Below, piece by piece: positions 2,607 to 51,870 of a stretch of 59,822 nucleotides of DNA. A program made the translations under genes and the position numbers. The stretch is taken from assembly GCA_016219355.1 (NCBI GenBank), contig JACRNF010000019.1, positions 1 to 59,822 of the forward strand, given 5' to 3'. The stretch is from Chlamydiota bacterium. Lineage in GTDB: Bacteria; Chlamydiota; Chlamydiia; Chlamydiales; SM23-39. Under the pieces are notes generated by a model. It was not told the origin of the DNA, searched no databases, and saw only the letters and a program-made list of their open reading frames with translations. Numbering within the stretch: position 1 is the first letter of the stretch; each line of letters begins with the position of its first letter.

Positions 2607-4334
2607 ATGAGACTTCTTGTATTTTTTTTATTCCCCATTTTTTTGTTTGCAGAAATTTCTGAAGAAAAGCTTTTGCAAAGGATAAATTATCATTTAGTGA
2701 TTGAAGATTATAAATCGGCAGTTTTGGAATCTAGAGAAGCCCTGGATCATTTTCCAACATCTAAAGAAATTTGGATCTCATATATAAATGCGCTATCAAA
2801 AGATCACCAAGAAGCGTTGGCAATCGAGACTGTAAAAAACTTTTTTTCAGAATTTAAAGAAGAAGCACTTAACCGGGAAGTTTTAGAGGACCTCGGTTGG
2901 GGTATATTAAATAAAGGGTCTCAATCAATGCAGTATTCGATTAGGCTCATTAGCCTTGTTGGATCTTATTTAACCAATGATGTTAGGGCAGTTTCCATTT
3001 TATCTAACTTGATGAAAGATTCTAACGCTATTTTAAGATCGGTGGCTTTGCAACTTGCTTGCAGATATCCCGATGAGCCGTTAAGAAGACAGGTTGCCAA
3101 GCTTTTAGATGATGAGAAAGTGTGGCTTGTGCGCCTTGAAGTGATAAATACGGTTGGAGCAATGAGAATTAAAGAAAAGGACTCAAAATTAAAGGAGATC
3201 ATTGCTTCGGAAAAGTCTACGTTTGAAGAAAAGGCAAATGCTATTAAAGCCATAATAAATATTTATGACAAAGCAAGTATAGAAGAGATTAAAGTGCTAG
3301 CCAAAAGTCCAAAAGCCGGCTTAAGGCAGCTTTCAAGCGAGCTAGCGTCTCATTTTAGGGTCAAAGAGGCCAAAGAAGATATTTTATCTCTTGTGCAAGA
3401 TCCGATTGCCGATGTCAGGATTTCGGCTTTAAATGCCATTGGTTTATTTTATATTGATTTTTGTAGTCTTAAGGAAATTGAACAGATTGTAAGTTTATGT
3501 GAAAAAGATTCTGATGCGGCGGTCAGTATTACTGCTAGCTGGCTAGCTACTGTTGCCAATTTAAAAACTGGGCCTCAAAAACTCAAAGAATGGCTGTTTA
3601 ATGATTTTCCTGATAATCGAAGGCTTGCAGCCGGGGCTTTAGCAAAATGTGTGAATAGAGCGATGCCTCTTGCTAAAGAGATAATCAAAGATAGCCTAGA
3701 TCCGTTTGTCAAGGCCAATGTTGCCATAGGACTAATTGGGCAAAGAGTAAACGTTAAAGAGTGTTGTGATATAATTTTTGATCTTTTACAAAATGAAAAA
3801 CAGCTTTGGATGATAGACAATCGCAAAAATTCTTTATTTGAAGTTTTATGTCCTTCTCAGTTAAGGCATATAGATCAGATCCCTCATTATCCGGAAGCCA
3901 TCGATCAGATGACGAGGCTAAACCTATTTTCAATTTTAGCTGTTATGGAAGATACTAGGTCTTATGATGCAATTAAAAGCTTTTTAAAACAAAAGTCTTG
4001 GGGCATTACCGGTGTTGCAGCGGCAACTCTTCTTCAAGAGGGGGATTCAGAAGCTCTGCAAATTGTCAGACAGCTTTTAAAAGAAGACGATAAGGTTGTT
4101 AGAGTACAAGCGGCCCTAGTATTAGCCTTTCTTGGAAAAGATGAAACGGTAATTCCAATTTTAGAAAATGCCTATTTTGAGGCCGAAAGGGATATGAAAC
4201 TTTATATATTGGAAGCCTTAGGTCACATTGCCGAAATCGAGTCCTATCCTTTTTTTGTTAAAGTCTTAAACGAGCCTTTTCAAGCTTTAAGAGTTGTTGA
4301 CGCCTCATCGATTGTCCAAGCCATCAATAGATAA
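2607..4334 (+). CDS. secreted HEAT/PBS-lyase-like repeat protein
   Basis: The ATG at 2607 gives the signal-peptide-like start MRLLVFFLFPIFLFAE. Repeated xVRxxAxxALGxxG-type HEAT units run through the protein. The track start at 2562 is a GTG extension. Confidence 0.7.
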   Translation: MRLLVFFLFPIFLFAEISEEKLLQRINYHLVIEDYKSAVLESREALDHFPTSKEIWISYINALSKDHQEALAIETVKNFFSEFKEEALNREVLEDLGWGILNKGSQSMQYSIRLISLVGSYLTNDVRAVSILSNLMKDSNAILRSVALQLACRYPDEPLRRQVAKLLDDEKVWLVRLEVINTVGAMRIKEKDSKLKEIIASEKSTFEEKANAIKAIINIYDKASIEEIKVLAKSPKAGLRQLSSELASHFRVKEAKEDILSLVQDPIADVRISALNAIGLFYIDFCSLKEIEQIVSLCEKDSDAAVSITASWLATVANLKTGPQKLKEWLFNDFPDNRRLAAGALAKCVNRAMPLAKEIIKDSLDPFVKANVAIGLIGQRVNVKECCDIIFDLLQNEKQLWMIDNRKNSLFEVLCPSQLRHIDQIPHYPEAIDQMTRLNLFSILAVMEDTRSYDAIKSFLKQKSWGITGVAAATLLQEGDSEALQIVRQLLKEDDKVVRVQAALVLAFLGKDETVIPILENAYFEAERDMKLYILEALGHIAEIESYPFFVKVLNEPFQALRVVDASSIVQAINR

Positions 4335-4336
4335 GT

Positions 4337-4762
4337 TTAACTTGGACAACATTCGTCGTCGCAATCACAATCGCAAATATCATCCGTGTTTGCCGGGAAA
4401 ACTTGTGCTGTTTTTGGTTTGGTGCAGTTGTTAATTGCTTGGCCGATCACTACAATAGGTAAGAGAATTGGAAGAAGCGGTAAAAATGGAATTAAAACAA
4501 CAAACATTGTAAATAATGCAAAGATTTCAATTGTTATTTGTAAAATCTTTAGGGCAATTCCAATCATGGACAAAGTCAATGTCACAGAAGCGATGATGAG
4601 CGCTGCCGTAGTTCCTAATAAAGATAAAGTTAATACACTTAACAGAGCTAAGGCAACCACAGTAATTGTGATCTCTTTATTAACTTTTGAAAAAAGCTTA
4701 TCTGTATTAACAAGCCTAACATGAGCCATCTCAGGCAAAGGAGTTGATACTGCAAATGCCAT
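4337..4762 (-). CDS. Inc-like multi-pass membrane protein with an acidic Cys-rich tail
   Basis: 141 aa with long hydrophobic blocks (residues about 30-110). The tail is DDICDCDCDDECCPS*. AAAGGA lies upstream of the ATG. Confidence 0.55.
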   Translation of the reverse strand: MAFAVSTPLPEMAHVRLVNTDKLFSKVNKEITITVVALALLSVLTLSLLGTTAALIIASVTLTLSMIGIALKILQITIEIFALFTMFVVLIPFLPLLPILLPIVVIGQAINNCTKPKTAQVFPANTDDICDCDCDDECCPS

Positions 4763-4780
4763 AAAATATCCTTTTGTTAA

Positions 4781-4953
4781 TATTAACCTCAGTTTTGAGT
4801 TTAATCCTCTCAGAATCAGCTATCTTTTTGTAATTTTGTTTTCTTTTTTCCTCGAAAATAGAACCTTTGTCTATTTTCCTTGGAAAAAAGAAAACAAACT
4901 CCTCAAAAATCTTAGCAGATTCTGAGGGAAGAAACCCAAAGCTGAGGTTATTA
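4781..4953. repeat. MITE-like 173-bp palindromic element, copy 1
   Basis: 157/173 positions identical (manual ungapped alignment) to 24292..24464. Termini are TATTAACCTCAG...CTGAGGTTATTA. The left half is an imperfect reverse complement of the right half. Confidence 0.75.
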
Positions 4954-5036
4954 ATGTCTTCTTGTAAATAAATAGCCGCTCTTAAGTTTACAGAGTGTTT
5001 TTGTAACATATAAGCAACCATAAAAAGCTTCCTAAA

Positions 5037-5063
5037 ATTTTTGTAATTCAAGATTACAAAAAT
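5037..5063 (-). terminator. candidate intrinsic terminator downstream of nrdB
   Basis: Perfect 11-bp stem ATTTTTGTAAT / ATTACAAAAAT with a 5-nt loop, 65 nt after the nrdB stop. The stem is AT-only, so it is weak. Confidence 0.35.
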
Positions 5064-5127
5064 ATTTGTTTCTTTCCAATAAAAATTAAAATATTTTTTT
5101 ATAGGATTAAAAAAAAGAAAAAATAAT

Positions 5128-6147
5128 CTAAAAGTCCCAACCTTCAATTGCTGATGATTGATTATAAGAGGTCACTGTGGCTTCAAAGAAATTAGCTTTG
5201 ACATCTCCTTTGCCTTCAGTATCGGCAATCTTTTCCAAATGTTTATACGGGTGTTCCATATGACTCGGAAAAAGTGGCTTGAATTTGATTTTTTCCAATA
5301 ACTTGTTGGCAAGGTATTTGGTATATTTTTCTGTAGCGTCATTAGACATGCCTAAAATATTGTTGCCGATTATATGATTTGTCCATTGGATTTCTTGATT
5401 GACCGCTTCCATGAACATTTCATTGATCCAAGGAGTGTCGTTCTCGTCGATTATCTCGGGAATGATCTTTCTAAAAATGGAAACATGCAAAAGTTCATCT
5501 CGGTTGATATATCTTATAATGTCGGAGGTCCCATGCATTTTATGCCTGGAGGCTAGATTATAAAAGAAAACAAAGCCGTTATAAAAATAGAGCCCTTCTA
5601 AAAGATAATTGGCAATCAGCACTCTTTTAAAGTTGGCGGTGGAAGGGGAATCTAAAAATTGTTGAAAAATTTCAGCTATGTATTTGTTGCGAGTAAAAAG
5701 AACTTCGTCATCTTTCCAAAAGTCATAGATGTAGTTCCTGGTCTCTTTAGGAAGAATGGTCTCTATTATATATTGATAAGACTGTGAATGAATAGCCTCC
5801 TGATAGGTCTGAATGGCCAAAATGAGGTTTATTTCAGGTGCCGTAATATAATCTGATATATGAGGAACGTTGTTGGTTTGGACGCTATCTAAAAAGATTA
5901 AAAAACTTAAAATGCCATCAAAAGCTTTTTTCTCATCTGTTGTCAGGTTCTTATAATCGTTGATATCAGATGTTAGATCTACTTTTTCAGGGATCCAAAA
6001 ATTTTCCATCATGGACCGATAAAGTTTATTGGCCCAGTTATATTTGACATTGTTTAAATTGAAGATATTGGTAGTGTTGCCTTGTATAACTTTGCGCTCT
6101 TGGATCGAGTCATTTCCAAACGGATTAAATAGTTTTTTTGGTTTCAT
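5128..6147 (-). CDS. nrdB: ribonucleoside-diphosphate reductase beta subunit (class Ia-type, Tyr radical site present)
   Basis: 339 aa with FLDSVQ (Asp ligand), EAIHSQSY (Glu-x-x-His-x-x-x-Tyr) and later EGxxF/ExxH-type motifs typical of R2. Confidence 0.95.
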   Translation of the reverse strand: MKPKKLFNPFGNDSIQERKVIQGNTTNIFNLNNVKYNWANKLYRSMMENFWIPEKVDLTSDINDYKNLTTDEKKAFDGILSFLIFLDSVQTNNVPHISDYITAPEINLILAIQTYQEAIHSQSYQYIIETILPKETRNYIYDFWKDDEVLFTRNKYIAEIFQQFLDSPSTANFKRVLIANYLLEGLYFYNGFVFFYNLASRHKMHGTSDIIRYINRDELLHVSIFRKIIPEIIDENDTPWINEMFMEAVNQEIQWTNHIIGNNILGMSNDATEKYTKYLANKLLEKIKFKPLFPSHMEHPYKHLEKIADTEGKGDVKANFFEATVTSYNQSSAIEGWDF

Positions 6148-6156
6148 TTTTTCTCC

Positions 6157-8253
6157 TTAACTGCTGCAAGATATGCATTCTTCTTTATCTAAAGAAGAGC
6201 CGTCTTTCTGGATTGTTCTTATGTAATATATGGTTTTAATCTTTTTTTCCCATGCGTCAAGCAAGGTTTCAAAGATGTATTTGGCATTAATGTGAGGTAA
6301 ATTAAGATTAAATATTAGTTCATAGCTGATGCCGGTATCGATCCATTTTTGGATTTCTCCAATAACGGCATTAATTGCTTTAGAGTCCATGTGCTTATAT
6401 TCTTTGTAATACCAAAAACGATCTTTGATGAAAGGGGGACATACGGGTACTGATCCTTTTGAGTTCTTATCCATGTAAAATTTAGAAAAAATGGGAAGGA
6501 CCGATGGAGTGCAGCCTTGGACTAAAGCCGAAGAAGTATTGGGGGCGATGGCTAAAATTTGAGAGTTTCTGATCCCATGCTTATCAATTTTATCTTGCAG
6601 CTCTAACCATTTTTTAGGATTTTGAGAAAAAGTGGCAAAATTATTTATTCTTTCTTTATTGTCCCATTTAGAATTTTTAAAAGCTTTGAAGGGGCCTCTT
6701 TTTTTGGATAATTCGATGGAAGAGTCAATGGAGTAAAAAGCGATATTTTCAAATAGTATTCCAACTTCTTTTTGAGCCTGTTCATATTTGAGGTTGTTTT
6801 TGGCTAAATAATCGGCAAGTCCCATAGCTCCAAGGCCAATAGTGCGGTATTTATTGTTGTGAAACGAGCTTTGCTGGTCGGGAGTAGTTGTTAGATCGAT
6901 TGCATTATCTAAGATCCGAAATGGGATATACCCTTCATGAGAATTGGGATTGACTGAGTTGGCGGTGTCTTTAAAGAAAATATAGGGCATTCCGGTTTCT
7001 AACTGTGTTTTCATGATCTGTTTGAAAAGTTCTTTAGAGCTAACTTTTTTTACTAATTTAAGCTTATTATCTTGATAGGCGAGAATACATTTTTGGTAGC
7101 TCTCTTCAAATTTTTTTGAATAACATTCGGCTAGATCAATTTTCAATTTGGTTTTAACTTCATAGGGATCGAAGAGGAAAAAATCTTTATTTTCTTTGAC
7201 ACAGTTCATAAAAAGATCGGGGATGACAACTTGCGGGAATATATCATACGCTTTTCTTCTTTGGTCCCCATTTTCCGTTTGGAGCTCTAAAAATTCTTCA
7301 AAATCCAAATGCCAAACATCTAATGAAACGGTGACGGCTCCGGCCCTTTTGCCCATTTGATTTACTGCTACGGCGGTATCATTGATGATTTTGATCCAGG
7401 GGATGACTCCGCCTGAAGCATTAGGATGTTTTTTTACCCAAGATCCTTTGGCTCTAATTTTAGATAAATTGATCCCGACTCCGCCGCCATTTTTGGAAAT
7501 TTTGGCAATTTTGGTCACGGTATCAAATATGGAATTGATATCATCGTCAATAGCTATGATAAAACAAGAAGATAAATTACCACTCGGTCTTCTTAAGTTT
7601 AATAAAATAGGTGTGGCCAAAGAGATTTTTCTCGAAGCGATTAAATTGTAAAATTTTTTGGCAAAGATGAGTCTTTCATTTTTTTCTTCAACGCTGGCCA
7701 AAAGAAGAGCTATGGTCAAATAAGCTTCTTGGGGTAGTTCATCTTGTATAAGATAGCGGGTGCTAAGAAGTACAATCCCGGCATAATCATAGTCCAAATC
7801 TTTGCGGTTATCAATCCAGCTTCCTGCTTCTTCTAGCTCTACTTTTGAATAGAGTTTTAAAATTTTAGGGTCGTATTTTTTTTGTTTGACCATACTTTGG
7901 ATATGTTTTAAATAGTCTTCGTATAGGTAGCCTCGGTTTCTTTGAGTGTCTTTCCACATGTTCATAGTGAGTAACCTTCCGGCGACTATTCTCCAATCTG
8001 GCTCTTTTACCGAGGTCAAAGAAAGGGCGTGATAGATCAAATTTTCTTGAATTTGAGTGGTTTTGATTTTATCATGAAAAATTATGTCTATGGAGGCTTC
8101 TAATTTTAAAGGATTTATTTCTAATCCTTGTGTAGCCCAGGCAATAACCTTTTTGACCTTCTCAATGTCAAAATTAGCTATGGTTCCGTCTCGTTTGATA
8201 ACCGATTTTAAAAGATCTTTATGTATAGGAGGATTTTGAGTTTTAATCGACAT
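6157..8253 (-). CDS. nrdA: ribonucleoside-diphosphate reductase alpha subunit; ORF intact but apparently missing the catalytic SNLCxEI loop
   Basis: 698 aa with an ATP-cone-like N-terminus (VIKRDGT..F) and LSSCFII (the C225 region). The sequence reads FFKDTANSVNPNSHEGYIP then directly FRILDNAIDL...RTIGLGAMGLADYL. The C-terminus is Cys-rich (CISCSS). Confidence 0.85.
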   Translation of the reverse strand: MSIKTQNPPIHKDLLKSVIKRDGTIANFDIEKVKKVIAWATQGLEINPLKLEASIDIIFHDKIKTTQIQENLIYHALSLTSVKEPDWRIVAGRLLTMNMWKDTQRNRGYLYEDYLKHIQSMVKQKKYDPKILKLYSKVELEEAGSWIDNRKDLDYDYAGIVLLSTRYLIQDELPQEAYLTIALLLASVEEKNERLIFAKKFYNLIASRKISLATPILLNLRRPSGNLSSCFIIAIDDDINSIFDTVTKIAKISKNGGGVGINLSKIRAKGSWVKKHPNASGGVIPWIKIINDTAVAVNQMGKRAGAVTVSLDVWHLDFEEFLELQTENGDQRRKAYDIFPQVVIPDLFMNCVKENKDFFLFDPYEVKTKLKIDLAECYSKKFEESYQKCILAYQDNKLKLVKKVSSKELFKQIMKTQLETGMPYIFFKDTANSVNPNSHEGYIPFRILDNAIDLTTTPDQQSSFHNNKYRTIGLGAMGLADYLAKNNLKYEQAQKEVGILFENIAFYSIDSSIELSKKRGPFKAFKNSKWDNKERINNFATFSQNPKKWLELQDKIDKHGIRNSQILAIAPNTSSALVQGCTPSVLPIFSKFYMDKNSKGSVPVCPPFIKDRFWYYKEYKHMDSKAINAVIGEIQKWIDTGISYELIFNLNLPHINAKYIFETLLDAWEKKIKTIYYIRTIQKDGSSLDKEECISCSS

Positions 8254-23788: not shown

Positions 23789-23800
23789 AGAAAAACGCAT

Positions 23801-24292
23801 TCATTCTTCAGCTGGATATAGTATGGCATCTTTGATACCGCAAAGCTCTTCTAAAGTCATCTGCAAGATTATCTTTTTAATCTCTTCAGTTACATTAAAA
23901 TTTAAAATGTTCTTTAGACTAACCCAAGCAAAAGAATCATGCTCAGATAATTTAATTTTAAAAGGCGCTTCCACTTCAATATGATAATTAAATTGCCGCG
24001 TCTTTTTTTTAGAGGAGGAGAGATAATCAAACGAGGATATATAAGAGTAAATTTTTTTAAGCTTAAGATTAGTCTCTTCTAAAACTTCCCGTTTTAAGGC
24101 TTGATCTAATGTTTCAGAGGTTTCAACTTTTCCGCTGGGAAGCTCATGTATTCCCCCCATAAAATCATCTTTTTTTCGTCTGAGAAGTAAAACCTCATTT
24201 TTTTTGTTGGTAATCACACCTCCAACAACAAATCTTTCAATACCTTCAGATTTTGCTGTAGCAATTAACCTTAAAAAAAAATCTTTGTCCAT
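23801..24292 (-). CDS. Nudix hydrolase
   Basis: From the ATG at 24292 the product starts MDKDFF. The Nudix box is GGIHELPSGKVETSETLDQALKREVLEETNL. The track extension to 24478 is a translation of the MITE-like repeat. Confidence 0.85.
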   Translation of the reverse strand: MDKDFFLRLIATAKSEGIERFVVGGVITNKKNEVLLLRRKKDDFMGGIHELPSGKVETSETLDQALKREVLEETNLKLKKIYSYISSFDYLSSSKKKTRQFNYHIEVEAPFKIKLSEHDSFAWVSLKNILNFNVTEEIKKIILQMTLEELCGIKDAILYPAEE

Positions 24293-24464
24293 ATTAACCT
24301 CAGTTTTGGGTCTAATCCACTCAGAATCAGCAATCTTTTTGCAATTTTGATTTCTTTTTTTCTCGAAAAGAGAGCCTTTGGCTATTTTCCTCGAAAAAAA
24401 GAAATCAAACTCCTCAAAAATCTTAGCAGATTCAGAGGGAAGAAACCCAATACTGAGGTTATTA
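24292..24464. repeat. MITE-like 173-bp palindromic element, copy 2
   Basis: Same orientation and length as 4781..4953, with 157/173 identical. It exactly fills the gap between the tal stop (24462..24464) and the Nudix start (24290..24292). Confidence 0.75.
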
Positions 24465-25436
24465 GAACATTTTAGCAAAAATTAATTTTTCCAAAGCAAT
24501 TGTATCTTTGATAAAAAGCCTAATCCCTTCAGATAGTTTTTCAGTTGCCATTTGATCTTCGTTGAGCATAAAACGAAAACCTTTTTCATCTAAGCTCTTC
24601 TTGTCTAAAGATTGTGCTTTGGCTACTTGAAAATCTAGTTTTTTATAAAGCTCTCCTTCAGTTTTTTGGAGCTCATCTAAAAGCTGGGGAGAAATAGTCA
24701 ATAGATCGCAGCCGGCAAGCTCTATAATTTCATCGATATTTCTAAAACTGGCCCCCATGATCTGGGTTGTATAATCAAATTTCTTATAGTAGTTATAAAT
24801 GGCTGTGACCGATTTTACCCCAGGATCATCGCTTGGAGCATACTTGTCTTTATTTTCAAATTTCTTAAACCAATCCAATATTCTGCCAACAAAAGGGGAG
24901 ATCAAGGTTGCTTTAACGTCTGCGGCTTTAATAGCTTGGGCTAGGCTAAAAATAAGGGTCATGTTGCAATGGATTTTTTCTTTTTCAAGCTTTTCGGCAG
25001 CTAATAGCCCTTCCCAAGTTGAAGCTAACTTTATTAAAATTCTTTCCCTGGGTATTTGTTTTTCTTCAAAAAGAGCAATAATTTGTTTGGCTTTTTTGAC
25101 GCTGGCATCGGTGTCAAATGAGAGCCTGGCATCCACTTCAATTGAGACTCTTCCGGGGACCTGTTTTAAAATTTCCGATGCAAAATTTACCAAAAGCTTA
25201 TCTAATATTGTGGGCATTTTTTCTTTTTCAGGTTTATTTTTGGCAAAACTAATCGCTTCATCAATTAAAAAACTGTATTTGGGGTCTTGAGATGCTTTAT
25301 AGATTAAAGAAGGGTTGGTGGTGGCATCGGTCGGCTTATACTTGGCAATCGAAAGAAAATCGGAAGTGTCAGCCACTACCGTGGTCATTTTTTTTAATTG
25401 GTCTAACTTGTTTTTTTGTAATGTTTGCAGAGTCAT
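24462..25436 (-). CDS. tal: transaldolase
   Basis: 324 aa with TTVVADTSDF, DATTNPSLI and the active-site Lys context ILIKLASTWEG. Confidence 0.95.
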   Translation of the reverse strand: MTLQTLQKNKLDQLKKMTTVVADTSDFLSIAKYKPTDATTNPSLIYKASQDPKYSFLIDEAISFAKNKPEKEKMPTILDKLLVNFASEILKQVPGRVSIEVDARLSFDTDASVKKAKQIIALFEEKQIPRERILIKLASTWEGLLAAEKLEKEKIHCNMTLIFSLAQAIKAADVKATLISPFVGRILDWFKKFENKDKYAPSDDPGVKSVTAIYNYYKKFDYTTQIMGASFRNIDEIIELAGCDLLTISPQLLDELQKTEGELYKKLDFQVAKAQSLDKKSLDEKGFRFMLNEDQMATEKLSEGIRLFIKDTIALEKLIFAKMF

Positions 25437-50279: not shown

Positions 50280-50813
50280 ATGGCTGCAATAGCTAAAGTT
50301 CAAGGAAGTTCATTTTTTCAAGCTCATATAAGAGTCATTAACACTCTGGCGATAATGGCTGCTTTGAGTGCTCTTGTAACTTTAGGGATTTATTTGTCGC
50401 CGCTAGCTTTCGCTGCTGGACCGGTGGCTCATCTGATATTAGTTTATAGCGGAGTATTAGGTGTTGGGACTGTTGGGGTAACTGCAACTCTAATTATTAA
50501 AAATTATCTTAAAGAATTACAAGAAAAAAACCAATTTTTCAACTTGTATGAAACCGAGCTTAAAAAACAAATTCAACTTCTTGAGGATGCAATAGAAAAT
50601 TTCTATAATAAAGAAATAGAAAACATTGGGCAATTAATTGCTCATCATAAAAATATAGACAAATTAATCGAAAGTCTAGGGACTTTCGAAGGATTTTTGA
50701 CCTCTTTTCTAAAAGATAAAAATAAAATTATTGATGAACAACAACTAAAAATTAATAGGGATAGATTTGAAGAGTTGAAAAAAATGGTCTCAAAATCCAA
50801 AGAAGAAAATTAA
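50280..50813 (+). CDS. Inc-like paralog 1 (hydrophobic hairpin plus coiled coil)
   Basis: 177 aa. It shares AIMAALSALVTLGIYL, IENFYN and RFEELK with the next two genes. Confidence 0.62.
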   Translation: MAAIAKVQGSSFFQAHIRVINTLAIMAALSALVTLGIYLSPLAFAAGPVAHLILVYSGVLGVGTVGVTATLIIKNYLKELQEKNQFFNLYETELKKQIQLLEDAIENFYNKEIENIGQLIAHHKNIDKLIESLGTFEGFLTSFLKDKNKIIDEQQLKINRDRFEELKKMVSKSKEEN

Positions 50814-50841
50814 ATAATAATTTAAAATGTGAGGATAAAAT

Positions 50842-51408
50842 ATGCCAGCTCCAATTAGACCTCAAAGTGCTTTTTCTGCTGAACACAAGCTAGCAGTTAG
50901 GGTTACTACGATTGCAGCAATAATGGTTGCAATAACTGCGATTATTGCTTTAGGAATTTATTTAGGCCCGGCAAGTTTATTAGCCGGAATAACCTTTGTT
51001 GCAGTTAAGATATCGGCCCTTCCGATATTAGTCTGCATTGGTGGATTAGGTGTTGCAGCCGTTGGGTTAGCTGCCATAAGTATTAGTAAAAAAGAGGATC
51101 CTAATGAGTTGCACGACAAAAGGGAAAATATCGATTTGGAATCTGAAGATAATGGCATTGAAAATAAAACAAAGGTGCTTGCCGCATCGATAGAGGATTT
51201 CTATAATACAGAAGTAAAAGGCGTTGCGTTAGTTCACAGGCCTGAAGATGCCATAAACAAAATTTTAGGAGAATTTGAACGATTTAGAATCTCTTTTATA
51301 AACGATAAAAATCAAATTGAAGATGCTATGACACTAAAATTTTATGAAGATAGGTTTAATGAGTTAAAGGCTGAGGTTTTAAATGCCAAAGAAAAAGTTA
51401 AAAAATAA
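50842..51408 (+). CDS. Inc-like paralog 2
   Basis: 188 aa with AAIMVAITAIIALGIYL, IEDFYN and RFNELK. GAGGA lies upstream of the ATG. Confidence 0.62.
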   Translation: MPAPIRPQSAFSAEHKLAVRVTTIAAIMVAITAIIALGIYLGPASLLAGITFVAVKISALPILVCIGGLGVAAVGLAAISISKKEDPNELHDKRENIDLESEDNGIENKTKVLAASIEDFYNTEVKGVALVHRPEDAINKILGEFERFRISFINDKNQIEDAMTLKFYEDRFNELKAEVLNAKEKVKK

Positions 51409-51429
51409 ATTTTTAAATAGAGGTTAAAT

Positions 51430-51870
51430 ATGAGTGATGTTAGTGGAATTCAAAACTATTTTTCCGAGCATAAACAAGCTATTAAATATGCTAAAGTTGC
51501 AGCAATAATGGTTGCTATAACTACTATCGTAGTTTTAGGAATTTATCTAGCTGGGGTACCAGGAGGATTAGTTTTATCGGCATGTATAATCGGAGCAAGT
51601 GTTTATGGGGTGTCATTGTTGAATAAAAAGGAAAAGGAAGGAATAGATTCTTTTCGTAAAGAAGTTAATGGCTATTTTTGTCAGATACAAAATTTAGAAA
51701 AATCAACTAATCCACAATTAAGAGAAAATATTACTTTACTCAGACATCGTAGAAACTTCATCAACTCAAACAATTTAACTATTCGAGAGCAAAGAGAATA
51801 TAGAAAAGAATTTGAACAGTTAAGAAAAAATATTGAGGATGCTAGATTTGGTATTATCTTGGAATCCTAG
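51430..51870 (+). CDS. Inc-like paralog 3
   Basis: 146 aa with AAIMVAITTIVVLGIYL and FEQLRK. AGAGG lies upstream of the ATG. Confidence 0.6.
   Translation: MSDVSGIQNYFSEHKQAIKYAKVAAIMVAITTIVVLGIYLAGVPGGLVLSACIIGASVYGVSLLNKKEKEGIDSFRKEVNGYFCQIQNLEKSTNPQLRENITLLRHRRNFINSNNLTIREQREYRKEFEQLRKNIEDARFGIILES

What the first reader, a model, noticed from the sequence alone, without database searches (positions are those of the whole stretch)
4781..4953. 173-bp palindromic MITE-like element present twice in the window
4781..4953 and 24292..24464 align without gaps at 157/173 positions, in the same orientation.
- The termini are inverted repeats: TATTAACCTCAG ... CTGAGGTTATTA.
- The whole left half is an imperfect reverse complement of the right half, for example CTCAGAATCAGC vs GCAGATTCTGAG and TTTTCTTTTTTCCTCGAAAATAGA vs TCTATTTTCCTTGGAAAAAAGAAAA.
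- DNA or RNA could therefore fold into a hairpin of about 80 bp centred near 4867.
- There is no transposase in the window, so it is a non-autonomous element or a structured regulatory repeat.
- Both copies lie between two co-directional minus-strand genes, directly upstream of the second gene (nrdB then Inc-like gene; tal then Nudix gene).
- The copies generate spurious ORFs sharing the peptide GFLPSESAKIFEEF.
Basis: seen in the sequence. Interest (0 to 1): 0.7.

Follow-up and report, generated by a model that had tools for sequence, protein, structure and literature searches.

The report
Chlamydial MITE mobilised by IS982-type transposase
The 173-bp palindromic repeat is a real miniature non-autonomous transposon (MITE) whose ends match ISPasp-like IS982-family insertion sequences of environmental chlamydiae: a well-defined example, apparently not yet described, of an ordinary kind of mobile DNA.

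Summary
The two copies (4781-4953 and 24292-24464) are 157/173 identical without gaps, their flanks are unrelated, and each folds into a hairpin of about 80 bp (dG about -81 kcal/mol, z = -12.4).

Each copy is a 163-bp element, ACCTCAG...CTGAGGT, flanked by a 5-bp direct repeat TATTA. This repeat is a target-site duplication, not part of the inverted repeat.

At least 36 full or near-full relatives (65-77% identical to the window copies) were found, and about 50 loci hold at least a partial copy. They come from Chlamydiae MAGs and metagenome contigs. In 22 of 34 relatives with both flanks, the 5-bp duplication is perfect, and its sequence varies between copies.

The same 16-18-nt termini bound 1.0-kb insertion sequences that encode an IS982-family transposase (NF033520, 251 bits). 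This protein is 68% identical to that of ISPasp2 of Protochlamydia amoebophila, and both ISPasp2 copies examined also make 5-bp duplications.

The element is therefore an IS982-type MITE. The window holds no IS982-type transposase.

Copy B sits exactly between the tal stop codon and the Nudix start codon, both kept by the duplication, and places a GAGG 5 nt before the ATG.

The hairpin covaries strongly across the family and one strand folds better. This is unexplained.

Verdict: a new member of a known kind, of modest interest.

The parts
4781..4785 (.). 5-bp target-site duplication TATTA, left copy, of MITE copy A
   Evidence: The same pentamer on the same strand flanks both ends. Relatives have perfect 5-bp direct repeats of varying sequence.
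4786..4948 (.). MITE copy A, 163 bp, ACCTCAG...CTGAGGT. It is a near-perfect palindrome centred near 4867. The strand that folds better is the minus strand.
   Evidence: 98 bits against the family HMM. The first 18 nt are identical to the end of an IS982-type deletion derivative, L068.
4786..4801 (+). Left terminal inverted repeat ACCTCAGTTTTGAGTT
   Evidence: It matches the termini of the autonomous IS copies L059, L118 and L080 and resembles those of ISPasp2.
4933..4948 (-). Right terminal inverted repeat (reads ACCTCAGCTTTGGGTT on the minus strand)
4949..4953 (.). 5-bp target-site duplication TATTA, right copy, of copy A
4337..4762 (-). 141-aa hydrophobic ORF downstream of copy A. Its ATG is 18 nt from the duplication, and its own AGGA Shine-Dalgarno lies between the two.
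   Evidence: No NCBIfam match.
5128..6147 (-). nrdB, upstream of copy A. Its stop codon is 174 nt from the element.
   Evidence: NF007184, 404 bits
24292..24296 (.). 5-bp target-site duplication TATTA of copy B. On the minus strand it reads TAATA, and its last A is the A of the Nudix ATG (24292-24290).
24297..24459 (.). MITE copy B, 163 bp
   Evidence: 99 bits against the family HMM
24297..24312 (+). Left terminal inverted repeat ACCTCAGTTTTGGGTC. On the minus strand its end reads CTGAGGT, which puts GAGG 5 nt before the Nudix ATG.
24444..24459 (-). Right terminal inverted repeat (reads ACCTCAGTATTGGGTT on the minus strand)
24460..24464 (.). 5-bp target-site duplication TATTA of copy B. On the minus strand it reads TAATA, and its TAA (24464-24462) is the tal stop codon.
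   Evidence: The tal protein aligns to the very end of the TIGR00874 profile.
24462..25436 (-). tal (transaldolase), complete. Its stop codon lies in the duplicated target.
   Evidence: 467 bits; residues 9-323 against profile positions 1-317 of 317
23801..24292 (-). Nudix hydrolase gene (163 aa from the ATG at 24292). The 225-aa ORF from the TTG at 24478 is an artefact that reads through the MITE.

Best explanation
Each copy is a 163-bp non-autonomous transposon (MITE) of the IS982 family.

Shown:
- Its 16-18-bp terminal inverted repeats (ACCTCAGTTTTGRGTT, with the family's 'AC' ends) match the ends of 1.0-kb ISPasp-like insertion sequences.
- Those insertion sequences encode a DDE transposase.
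- Both the insertion sequences and the MITEs are flanked by 5-bp duplications of an A+T-rich target.

Inferred:
- A transposase made elsewhere in the genome, or formerly present, binds the two ends.
- It inserts the element with staggered cuts 5 bp apart, which produces the duplication.

The rest of the element shares nothing with the insertion sequence and is one long palindrome.

In a compact chlamydial genome, the copies that survive are those in A+T-rich pentamers at gene boundaries. Copy B landed in the TAATA of a ...TTC TAA T ATG... junction. The duplication therefore left tal its TAA stop and the Nudix gene its ATG. The outward-facing end of the element now supplies a GAGG 5 nt before that ATG. 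Copy A sits in the nrdB / membrane-protein spacer, just upstream of that gene's own Shine-Dalgarno.

Any effect of the 80-bp hairpin on the transcripts is a by-product, not the reason the repeat exists (inferred).
For: (1) Anatomy. The flanks are unrelated, the ends are sharp, and TATTA flanks both sides on the same strand in both copies.

(2) The pentamer is a duplication, not part of the inverted repeat.
- In 10 of 10 complete hits from the genome collection, both flanks read TATTA on one strand. An inverted repeat would give TAATA.
- The closest relative, L018, was found through its translation and so was not biased by my DNA pattern. It has CAATA|ACCTGAG...CTCAGGT|CAATA.
- 22 of 34 relatives with both flanks have perfect 5-bp direct repeats of different sequence: TCTTA, TTTTA, CAATA, TACTA, TTGTA, AAATA, TAATA.
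- In L013 a truncated copy and a full copy share a single TATTA.

(3) Multicopy and widespread.
- Eight loci lie in seven Chlamydiae MAGs, three of them in one MAG.
- About 50 metagenome loci match a family HMM, several within one assembly. Ga0206825, for example, has 7 copies on 6 contigs.
- 34 elements form one family at >=65% identity.

(4) Autonomous partner.
- L059 holds a 1022-bp element with ends ACCTCAGTTTTGAGTTC / ACCTGAATTTTGGGTTC and one ORF of 293 aa.
- That ORF is an IS982-family transposase (NF033520, 251 bits against a cutoff of 130; Pfam DDE_Tnp_1_3, 245 bits).
- Further IS copies are L118 and L080. L068 is a 654-bp internally deleted copy.

(5) Named relative.
- The transposase is 68% identical to that of ISPasp2 of Candidatus Protochlamydia amoebophila.
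- In that genome, two ISPasp2 copies (1023 bp) have ends ACCTGAACTTTGGGTT / ACCTGAATTTTGGGTT and perfect 5-bp duplications, TAAGA and TAATA.
- A published review lists IS982 ends as 5'-AC, ISPasp1 with a 5-bp direct repeat and ISPasp2 as 1023 bp / 292 aa (PMC7335449).

(6) MITE-to-IS similarity is confined to the terminal 17-21 nt, as is usual for MITEs.

(7) No coding role. tal ends at the end of its profile and Nudix homologues start near the ATG at 24292. Only one database protein matches the element's translation, and it is an ORF called across another copy.

(8) Gene-boundary habit. Among 72 element sides, 10 have the stop codon of a >=80-codon ORF inside the duplication. About 7 have a start codon overlapping it.
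Against: - No empty (pre-insertion) site could be examined for either window copy. The window's genome has no close relative in the collections: Nudix homologues reach at most 61% identity, and exact look-ups of tal and nrdB find nothing.
- The genome-wide copy number in this organism is unknown, as is whether it carries an intact ISPasp-like transposase. The window holds none.
- The closest copy elsewhere is only 77% identical, so recent activity in this lineage is not shown. The two window copies differ at 9% of positions.
- Flanks of the assembled IS copies in short metagenome contigs are not clean duplications: TAATA/TATTA in L059 and TAATA/TAGTA in L118. Chimeric assembly of repeats could explain this.
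- 12 of 34 MITE copies have imperfect duplications.
- The strong covariation of the whole hairpin, and the fact that one strand folds better in 30 of 34 members, are not predicted by a plain 'selfish MITE' model.
Confidence: 0.9

Rival explanations
1. The repeat is primarily a structured cis-regulatory or small RNA element, such as a terminator/attenuator, an RNase III site or an sRNA gene. On this view it is conserved for that function, and its resemblance to a transposon is secondary or has been exapted.
For: - The hairpin is very stable.
- Covariation is strong across 34 relatives: 27 of 42 consensus pairs show changes on both sides, and 92% of cells pair against 77% when shuffled and 50% when slid.
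- One strand, the sense strand of the flanking genes in the window, folds better in 30 of 34 members because it carries about 3.6 times more G.U pairs.
- Both window copies are in the same orientation relative to their genes.
- The outward end provides a GAGG before the Nudix ATG.
Against: - No Rfam family matches at gathering threshold.
- No terminator-like T-run is found, and promoter-like sites are no more frequent than in shuffles.
- Across the family, the better-folding strand has no consistent orientation relative to neighbouring ORFs. The upstream gene is in the same sense 12 times against 7, the downstream gene 5 against 10, and the commonest setting is between convergent genes.
- The variable 5-bp duplications, the shared ends with transposase-bearing insertion sequences, and tandem or truncated copies are transposon properties that a regulatory motif does not explain.
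Confidence: 0.06
2. The two copies result from a local segmental duplication or gene conversion within this genome, not from a mobile element.
For: Only two copies are visible in the window, and they are in the same orientation.
Against: - The flanks are unrelated right up to the pentamer.
- The same element, with the same ends, occurs at unrelated loci in many other genomes and metagenomes with different duplicated pentamers.
Confidence: 0.01
3. The shared ORF (…GFLPSESAKIFEEF…) is a real protein-coding module, such as an N-terminal extension of the Nudix protein or a small gene.
For: Open frames of 138 and 225 aa run through both copies. The net insert is 168 bp, or 56 codons.
Against: - A search of 5.8 billion proteins found a single relative, a 93-aa ORF called across another copy of the element in L018.
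- Family members differ in length by amounts that are not multiples of 3: 161-170 bp.
- Nudix homologues are 142-172 aa and cover the 163-aa version.
- The copy A frame lies in the nrdB / membrane-gene spacer and starts with TTG.
Confidence: 0.01
4. It is a MITE of a different transposon family, for example a TA-targeting IS630/Tc1-mariner ('Stowaway-like') element, or a Rickettsia-palindromic-element-like repeat.
For: The outermost bases are TA...TA, and the organism is an intracellular bacterium with palindromic repeats.
Against: - The duplication is 5 bp, not 2 bp.
- The ends begin with AC and match IS982-type insertion sequences over 16-18 nt.
- The elements lie between genes, not in frame within them.
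Confidence: 0.02

Closest known systems
ISPasp2 / ISPasp1 (IS982 family) of Candidatus Protochlamydia amoebophila UWE25, and the ISPasp-like copies found here in metagenomes (L059, L118, L080)
   Same: - The terminal inverted repeats are nearly the same: ACCT(C/G)A(G/A)(T/C)TTTGGGTT, starting with 'AC'.
- Both make a 5-bp duplication of an A+T-rich target. TAAGA and TAATA were seen at the two ISPasp2 copies.
- Both occur in chlamydial hosts.
   Different: The insertion sequences are 1012-1023 bp and encode a 292-293-aa DDE transposase. The window element is 163 bp, encodes nothing and shares only the terminal 17-21 nt with them. Its interior is one long palindrome.
[quoted passage not shown] 2022, PMC9769881)
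   Same: They are non-autonomous derivatives of an IS982-family insertion sequence (ISCca4) in an intracellular bacterium. Their inverted repeats match the parental insertion sequence, and they lie mostly in intergenic DNA.
   Different: They are about 240 bp, are reported as restricted to one Cardinium strain, and keep short stretches of the parental insertion sequence beyond the repeats. The present family is 161-170 bp and fully palindromic. It has an unrelated sequence and occurs across many chlamydial lineages.
Correia elements (CREE/NEMIS) of Neisseria
   Same: They are short (about 100-155 bp) MITEs with long inverted repeats that fold as hairpins in mRNA and sit next to genes. They can affect expression of neighbouring genes (my own knowledge, not tested here).
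   Different: They duplicate TA, no partner transposase is known for them, and they are restricted to Neisseria. They show no sequence similarity to this element.
Rickettsia palindromic elements (RPE)
   Same: They are palindromic repeats of about 100-150 bp in obligate intracellular bacteria (my own knowledge).
   Different: RPEs are typically inserted in frame within protein-coding genes and lack a defined transposase partner. The elements here lie between genes, have terminal inverted repeats and target duplications, and have a partner insertion sequence.
QMITE1 / QMITE2 of Coxiella burnetii (PMC5896051)
   Same: They are MITE families in an intracellular bacterium that form stable stem-loops and overlap gene ends.
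   Different: They are 300-400 bp with 2-3-nt direct repeats, or about 190 bp with 7-9-bp direct repeats. Their sequences are unrelated and no IS982 link is reported.

Membership tests
MITE (miniature inverted-repeat transposable element) | Small size (below about 300-400 bp) with no coding capacity | tested here: met
   The element is 163 bp. The only protein relative of its translation is an ORF called across another copy. Member lengths vary by amounts that are not multiples of 3.
MITE (miniature inverted-repeat transposable element) | Terminal inverted repeats | tested here: met
   The ends read ACCTCAGTTTTGRGTT on both sides, and these columns are invariant or nearly so across 34 members.
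MITE (miniature inverted-repeat transposable element) | Target-site duplication of fixed length and variable sequence | tested here: met
   Both window copies are flanked by the 5-bp repeat TATTA. 22 of 34 relatives have perfect 5-bp repeats, of at least 7 different sequences.
MITE (miniature inverted-repeat transposable element) | Multiple dispersed copies within a genome | tested here: inconclusive
   Two copies lie in the 60-kb window. Related assemblies hold 3 to 7 copies each. The rest of this organism's genome is not available.
MITE (miniature inverted-repeat transposable element) | An autonomous element with matching ends that could supply the transposase | tested here: met
   L059, L118 and L080, and ISPasp2 in P. 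amoebophila, have matching ends. None lies in the window.
MITE (miniature inverted-repeat transposable element) | Presence/absence polymorphism (empty sites) or observed transposition | not testable with these tools
   No close relative of the window genome is in the collections.
IS982 family (as the source of the ends) | [quoted passage not shown] | tested here: met
   The element proper begins with ACC at both ends.
IS982 family (as the source of the ends) | Partner encodes an IS982-type DDE transposase | tested here: met
   The L059 ORF scores 251 bits on NF033520 (cutoff 130) and 245 bits on PF13612. It is 68% identical to the ISPasp2 transposase.
IS982 family (as the source of the ends) | Same duplication length as the partner insertion sequence | tested here: met
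   Both ISPasp2 copies in BX908798.2 have 5-bp duplications. ISfinder data quoted in PMC7335449 give a direct repeat of 5 for ISPasp1 and 4 for ISPasp2.
Rfam structured RNA families | Match to a curated covariance model at gathering score | tested here: not met
   Only two tRNAs matched in the whole window.
Intrinsic terminator | G+C-rich stem followed by a run of T | tested here: not met
   No terminator-like site was found in 4300-5400 or 23800-24900.
Rickettsia palindromic elements | In-frame insertion inside protein-coding genes | tested here: not met
   Copies lie between genes or exactly at stop/start codons. tal and Nudix are intact.
IS630/Tc1-mariner-derived (Stowaway-like) MITE | TA dinucleotide target duplication | tested here: not met
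   The duplication is 5 bp, for example CAATA, TCTTA and TTGTA.

The most novel reading that the evidence does not exclude
The element may be more than selfish DNA. Its full-length hairpin is kept by compensatory changes across lineages, and one particular strand folds better in 30 of 34 members through G.U pairs.

Its ends carry stop codons facing inward (TAA in the duplicated target plus the first A of the element) and a GAGG ribosome-binding motif facing outward.

It could therefore act as a portable intercistronic module. Such a module would be tolerated, or even selected, at chlamydial gene junctions. It would uncouple or re-tune translation and mRNA stability of the downstream gene.

Alternatively, the strand bias could reflect a strand-specific single-stranded hairpin intermediate in IS982-type transposition, whose mechanism is not known.
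Probability: 0.12. Interest if true: 0.6.

Novelty: new member of a known kind. Interest (0 to 1): 0.35.

Why it matters
- **Annotation.** The result explains two spurious ORFs: the 138-aa ORF at 4731-5147 and the 62-aa N-terminal 'extension' of the Nudix gene. It also explains a class of contig breaks in chlamydial MAGs, because many copies sit at contig ends.
- **Biology.** No MITE of the phylum Chlamydiae turned up in the searchable literature, and the IS982 review does not mention MITEs. This family is therefore probably undescribed. It links to a named insertion sequence (ISPasp2) of a cultivable chlamydia, so mobilisation can be tested.
- **Insertion sites.** Its habit of landing in the pentamer that holds a stop or start codon, while leaving both genes intact, shows how a transposon can persist in a gene-dense genome.
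- **Limits.** None of this changes a major concept. IS982-derived MITEs are already known from Cardinium.

Tried and rejected
- **Exact-protein look-ups** of the window's tal and nrdB, to find the source genome or sister strains, found nothing on record. The Nudix homologue search reached at most 61% identity. An empty-site test for the window copies was therefore impossible.
- **Plasmid collection** blastn with the element gave no match.
- **Viral contigs** scanned with an 18-nt two-ended pattern gave 11 hits. All are chance matches with no hairpin and no duplication.
- **L070**, with two termini 2.1 kb apart, looked like an autonomous copy. It is a large inverted duplication in a G+C-rich contig with no transposase.
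- **Cardinium MITECca01** (PMC9769881) and **Coxiella QMITE1/2** (PMC5896051) were read as candidate identities. They are different elements.
- **Integron attC, REP/RAYT, piggyBac-like TTAA and IS1380 'CC' ends** were considered from the terminal sequence. They were rejected because the duplication is 5 bp directly abutting ACC...GGT, and because the partner is an IS982-type element.
- **Derivation of the interior from the partner insertion sequence** was tested. No similarity exists beyond 17-21 terminal nt.
- **Orientation of the better-folding strand** relative to neighbouring genes was tested. No consistent orientation was found.
- **Promoter and terminator scans** gave nothing above the shuffled expectation.

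Full report
**Observation**

The two stretches are as described. 4781-4953 and 24292-24464 align without gaps at 157 of 173 positions, in the same orientation. The repeat finder reports a 181-nt direct repeat at 90% identity. Similarity stops abruptly at both ends and the flanks do not align.

Each copy folds into a single hairpin of about 80 bp. The MFE is -80.8 and -81.9 kcal/mol for the minus strand. Shuffles average -34 and -39, giving z = -12.4. The terminal 17-mer occurs four times in the window against 0.33 expected.

Of the 16 differences between the copies, two pairs are compensatory within the hairpin: T.A to A.T at 59/114 and C.G to T.A at 70/103. A profile HMM of the family finds only these two copies in the window, even at E <= 10.

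The gene context is confirmed. nrdA-nrdB precede copy A, followed by a 141-aa hydrophobic ORF. tal precedes copy B, followed by a Nudix gene. All lie on the minus strand.

**Anatomy: where the element really ends**

It is not quite one. The reverse complement of the left end would be ...GGTTAATA, but the right end reads ...GGTTATTA. Both ends therefore carry TATTA on the same strand, which is a 5-bp direct repeat abutting a true inverted repeat, ACCTCAG...CTGAGGT.

The genome-collection scan used TAACCTCAGN{135,165}CTGAGGTTAWTA and gave 17 loci.
- Eight loci lie in seven Chlamydiae/Rhabdochlamydiaceae MAGs.
- Three more hits carry the same ends: Pedobacter and a Legionellales MAG, which are strong palindromes, and Saccharicrinis, which folds only weakly.
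- The remaining six are the chance hits expected for that pattern.

In 10 of 10 complete hits, the position my pattern did not fix shows the direct-repeat arrangement.

The deciding case is L018, which was found through the element's translation rather than a DNA pattern. It reads CAATA|ACCTGAG...CTCAGGT|CAATA. That is a perfect direct repeat with a different sequence, and the inverted repeat has changed on both sides.

The metagenome scan with one terminus returned 93 stretches.
- Among 34 elements from the two scans and L018 with both flanks present, 22 have perfect 5-bp direct repeats.
- The repeat sequences vary: TCTTA, TTTTA, CAATA, TACTA, TTGTA, AAATA and TAATA.
- In L013, a truncated copy and a full copy share one TATTA.

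The element proper is therefore 163 bp (4786-4948 and 24297-24459), and TATTA is a target-site duplication.

**The family**

Thirty-four full-length elements, including the two in the window, form one family at >=65% identity. The window copies are closest to L018 at 77%.

The HMM built from their alignment matches about 50 of the fetched loci. Many of these matches are copies cut off by contig ends, as expected for a repeat that breaks assemblies. Several assemblies hold multiple copies. One MAG has three (L004, L008, L009), and Ga0206825 has seven on six contigs.

Internally deleted versions of 73-81 and 151 bp also occur. L047, L066 and L102 have perfect 5-bp duplications and L090 an imperfect one.

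**The autonomous partner**

One 'solo' terminus, in L059, turned out to be the end of a 1022-bp element.
- Its ends are ACCTCAGTTTTGAGTTC and ACCTGAATTTTGGGTTC.
- It carries a single ORF of 293 aa.
- That ORF is an IS982-family transposase: NCBIfam NF033520 at 251 bits against a cutoff of 130, and Pfam DDE_Tnp_1_3 at 245 bits.

tblastn found further copies with the same ends (L118, 1012 bp; L080, 1015 bp). It also found a 654-bp copy that keeps only the first 159 codons (L068) and fragments in L096 and L078. It found nothing in the window.

The protein has thousands of relatives. The named ones are the 'IS982-like element ISPasp2 family transposase' of Candidatus Protochlamydia amoebophila, at 68% identity.

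In that complete genome, two ISPasp2 copies are 1023 bp long. Their ends are ACCTGAACTTTGGGTT / ACCTGAATTTTGGGTT. They are flanked by perfect 5-bp duplications, TAAGA and TAATA.

The published review of the family gives 5'-AC ends, variable direct repeats, ISPasp1 with a 5-bp repeat and ISPasp2 at 1023 bp / 292 aa. It does not mention MITEs (PMC7335449).

Similarity between the small elements and the insertion sequences is confined to the terminal 17-21 nt. The first 18 nt of copy A are identical to the end of L068.

**Mechanism**

*Shown.* The small elements and the ISPasp-like insertion sequences share their ends and their 5-bp duplications. The insertion sequences encode a DDE transposase.

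*Inferred.* The transposase, supplied in trans, recognises the two ACCTCAGTTTTGRGTT ends and integrates the element with 5-bp staggered cuts at A+T-rich pentamers.

Most observed targets look like T-N-N-T-A. However, my patterns fixed the last two bases, so only the first three positions are informative.

*Copy B.* Removing the element and one pentamer restores ...AAA ATG TTC TAA T ATG GAC... on the minus strand. That is the tal stop, one base, then the Nudix start. After insertion:
- tal still ends in TAA. Its protein aligns to the last position of the TIGR00874 profile.
- Nudix keeps its ATG, whose A comes from the duplicated pentamer.
- The outward end of the element places GAGG 5 nt upstream of that ATG.

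*Copy A.* It lies 174 nt after nrdB and 18 nt before the ATG of the 141-aa ORF, just upstream of that gene's own AGGA.

The same habit recurs across the family. Of 72 element sides, 10 have the stop codon of a >=80-codon ORF inside the duplication, and about 7 have a start codon overlapping it.

I cannot tell whether this reflects target choice (TAA-containing pentamers) or survival of harmless insertions.

**What is not explained**

The whole hairpin, not only the ends, is maintained.
- 27 of 42 consensus pairs show changes on both sides.
- 92.4% of cells pair, against 77% after shuffling and at most 55% when the partner is slid.
- The covariation score is 0.38 against 0.11.

The element also has a polarity. 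The HMM scores each copy about twice as high in one orientation. The strand equivalent to the window's minus strand folds better in 30 of 34 members, by 13 kcal/mol on average. It carries 163 G.U pairs at 62 different positions, against about 45 on the other strand.

That strand is the sense strand of the flanking genes in both window copies. Across the family, though, its orientation relative to neighbouring ORFs is not consistent, and the commonest setting is between convergent genes.

Inheritance from a master copy, correction within the hairpin, a strand-specific single-stranded intermediate and an RNA-level role all remain possible.

No Rfam family matches. No terminator-like or above-chance promoter-like signal is present.

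**Rivals**

- *Segmental duplication* is excluded by the unrelated flanks and by copies at unrelated loci in many genomes.
- *A real coding domain* is excluded. Only one protein in 5.8 billion resembles the translation, and it is an ORF called across another copy. Member lengths differ by amounts that are not multiples of three.
- *A TA-duplicating or RPE-like element* is excluded by the 5-bp duplication, the AC ends and the intergenic position.
- *A primarily regulatory RNA* cannot be fully excluded. It explains none of the transposon features.

**Comparison with what is known**

The element works like, and passes the structural tests for, a MITE. It meets the criteria for size, inverted repeats, duplication, lack of coding capacity and a partner insertion sequence. 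The one untested criterion is direct evidence of movement.

The closest described relatives in kind are MITECca01/02 of Cardinium. These derive from the IS982-family element ISCca4, are 240 bp and are strain-specific (PMC9769881).

I found no description of a MITE in Chlamydiae in the searchable literature. That search does not cover ISfinder or subscription journals.

The host assignment rests on two points. A full-length match to the chlamydial-type PknD model scores 751 bits, just under its cutoff of 839. The element's relatives lie in Chlamydiae MAGs. The assignment is an inference.

**Verdict**

The finding is real, its ends are now exactly defined, and its origin is identified. It is a new member of a known kind. 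Interest is modest (0.35), raised slightly by the gene-junction insertions and the unexplained strand-biased hairpin conservation.

Noticed in passing
window 6157-8253 (minus strand), around 6915-6935: The nrdA ORF (698 aa) lacks, in frame, about 50-60 residues. In the solved homologue 7agj_A these hold the catalytic 'SSNLCHEI' loop. The protein jumps from ...NPNSHEGYI straight to PFRILDNAIDL (chain residue 545). It could be an inactive NrdA, an assembly artefact or an unusual enzyme. nrdB next to it looks complete.
   Followed up: partly
alignment A2 (34 elements); window copies 4786-4948 and 24297-24459: The MITE family has a conserved polarity. The strand equivalent to the window's minus strand folds better in 30 of 34 members, by 13 kcal/mol on average. 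It carries about 3.6 times more G.U pairs than the other strand. The polarity does not track the orientation of neighbouring genes.
   Followed up: partly
L004 6248-6431, and the right flank of the element in L008 (from 6548): The same Chlamydiae MAG holds a second, different palindromic element with similar-looking ends: TATATATAACCTCGACTTATGTCATTTTTTGA ... TCAAAAAATGACATAAGTCGAGATAACTTATA. It may be another MITE family with ACCTC-type ends.
   Followed up: no
L124 about 2700-4000 (Protochlamydia amoebophila BX908798.2, 1596802-1603680): This ISPasp2 copy appears to be inserted into another IS982-type element. The upstream flank resembles the insertion sequence's own leader, and the downstream flank starts like a transposase gene. 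The insertion is at a TAATA directly before that gene's ATG, the same kind of site as copy B in the window.
   Followed up: no
L001 1500-1680 (Pedobacter sp. BS3), L012 5121-5302 (Legionellales MAG), L014 4477-4648 (Saccharicrinis MAG): Elements of 172-182 bp with the same ACCTCAG...CTGAGGT ends, but with interiors unlike the chlamydial family, occur outside the Chlamydiae. L001 and L012 fold into strong hairpins, L014 only weakly (-29 kcal/mol). L001 and L014 are flanked by TATTA. L012 seems to have a 7-bp repeat, TATTATA.
   Followed up: partly
window 50280-51870 (plus strand): Three adjacent ORFs (50280-50813, 50842-51408, 51430-51870) share 71-73% identical DNA segments spaced about 585 bp apart (repeats D4 and D5). 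They look like a tandem array of paralogous small membrane-protein genes.
   Followed up: no
L068 834-1487: This is a 654-bp IS982-type element with intact ends that keeps only the first 159 codons of the transposase. It is a plausible intermediate between an insertion sequence and a MITE. Its 18-nt end is identical to that of window copy A.
   Followed up: partly
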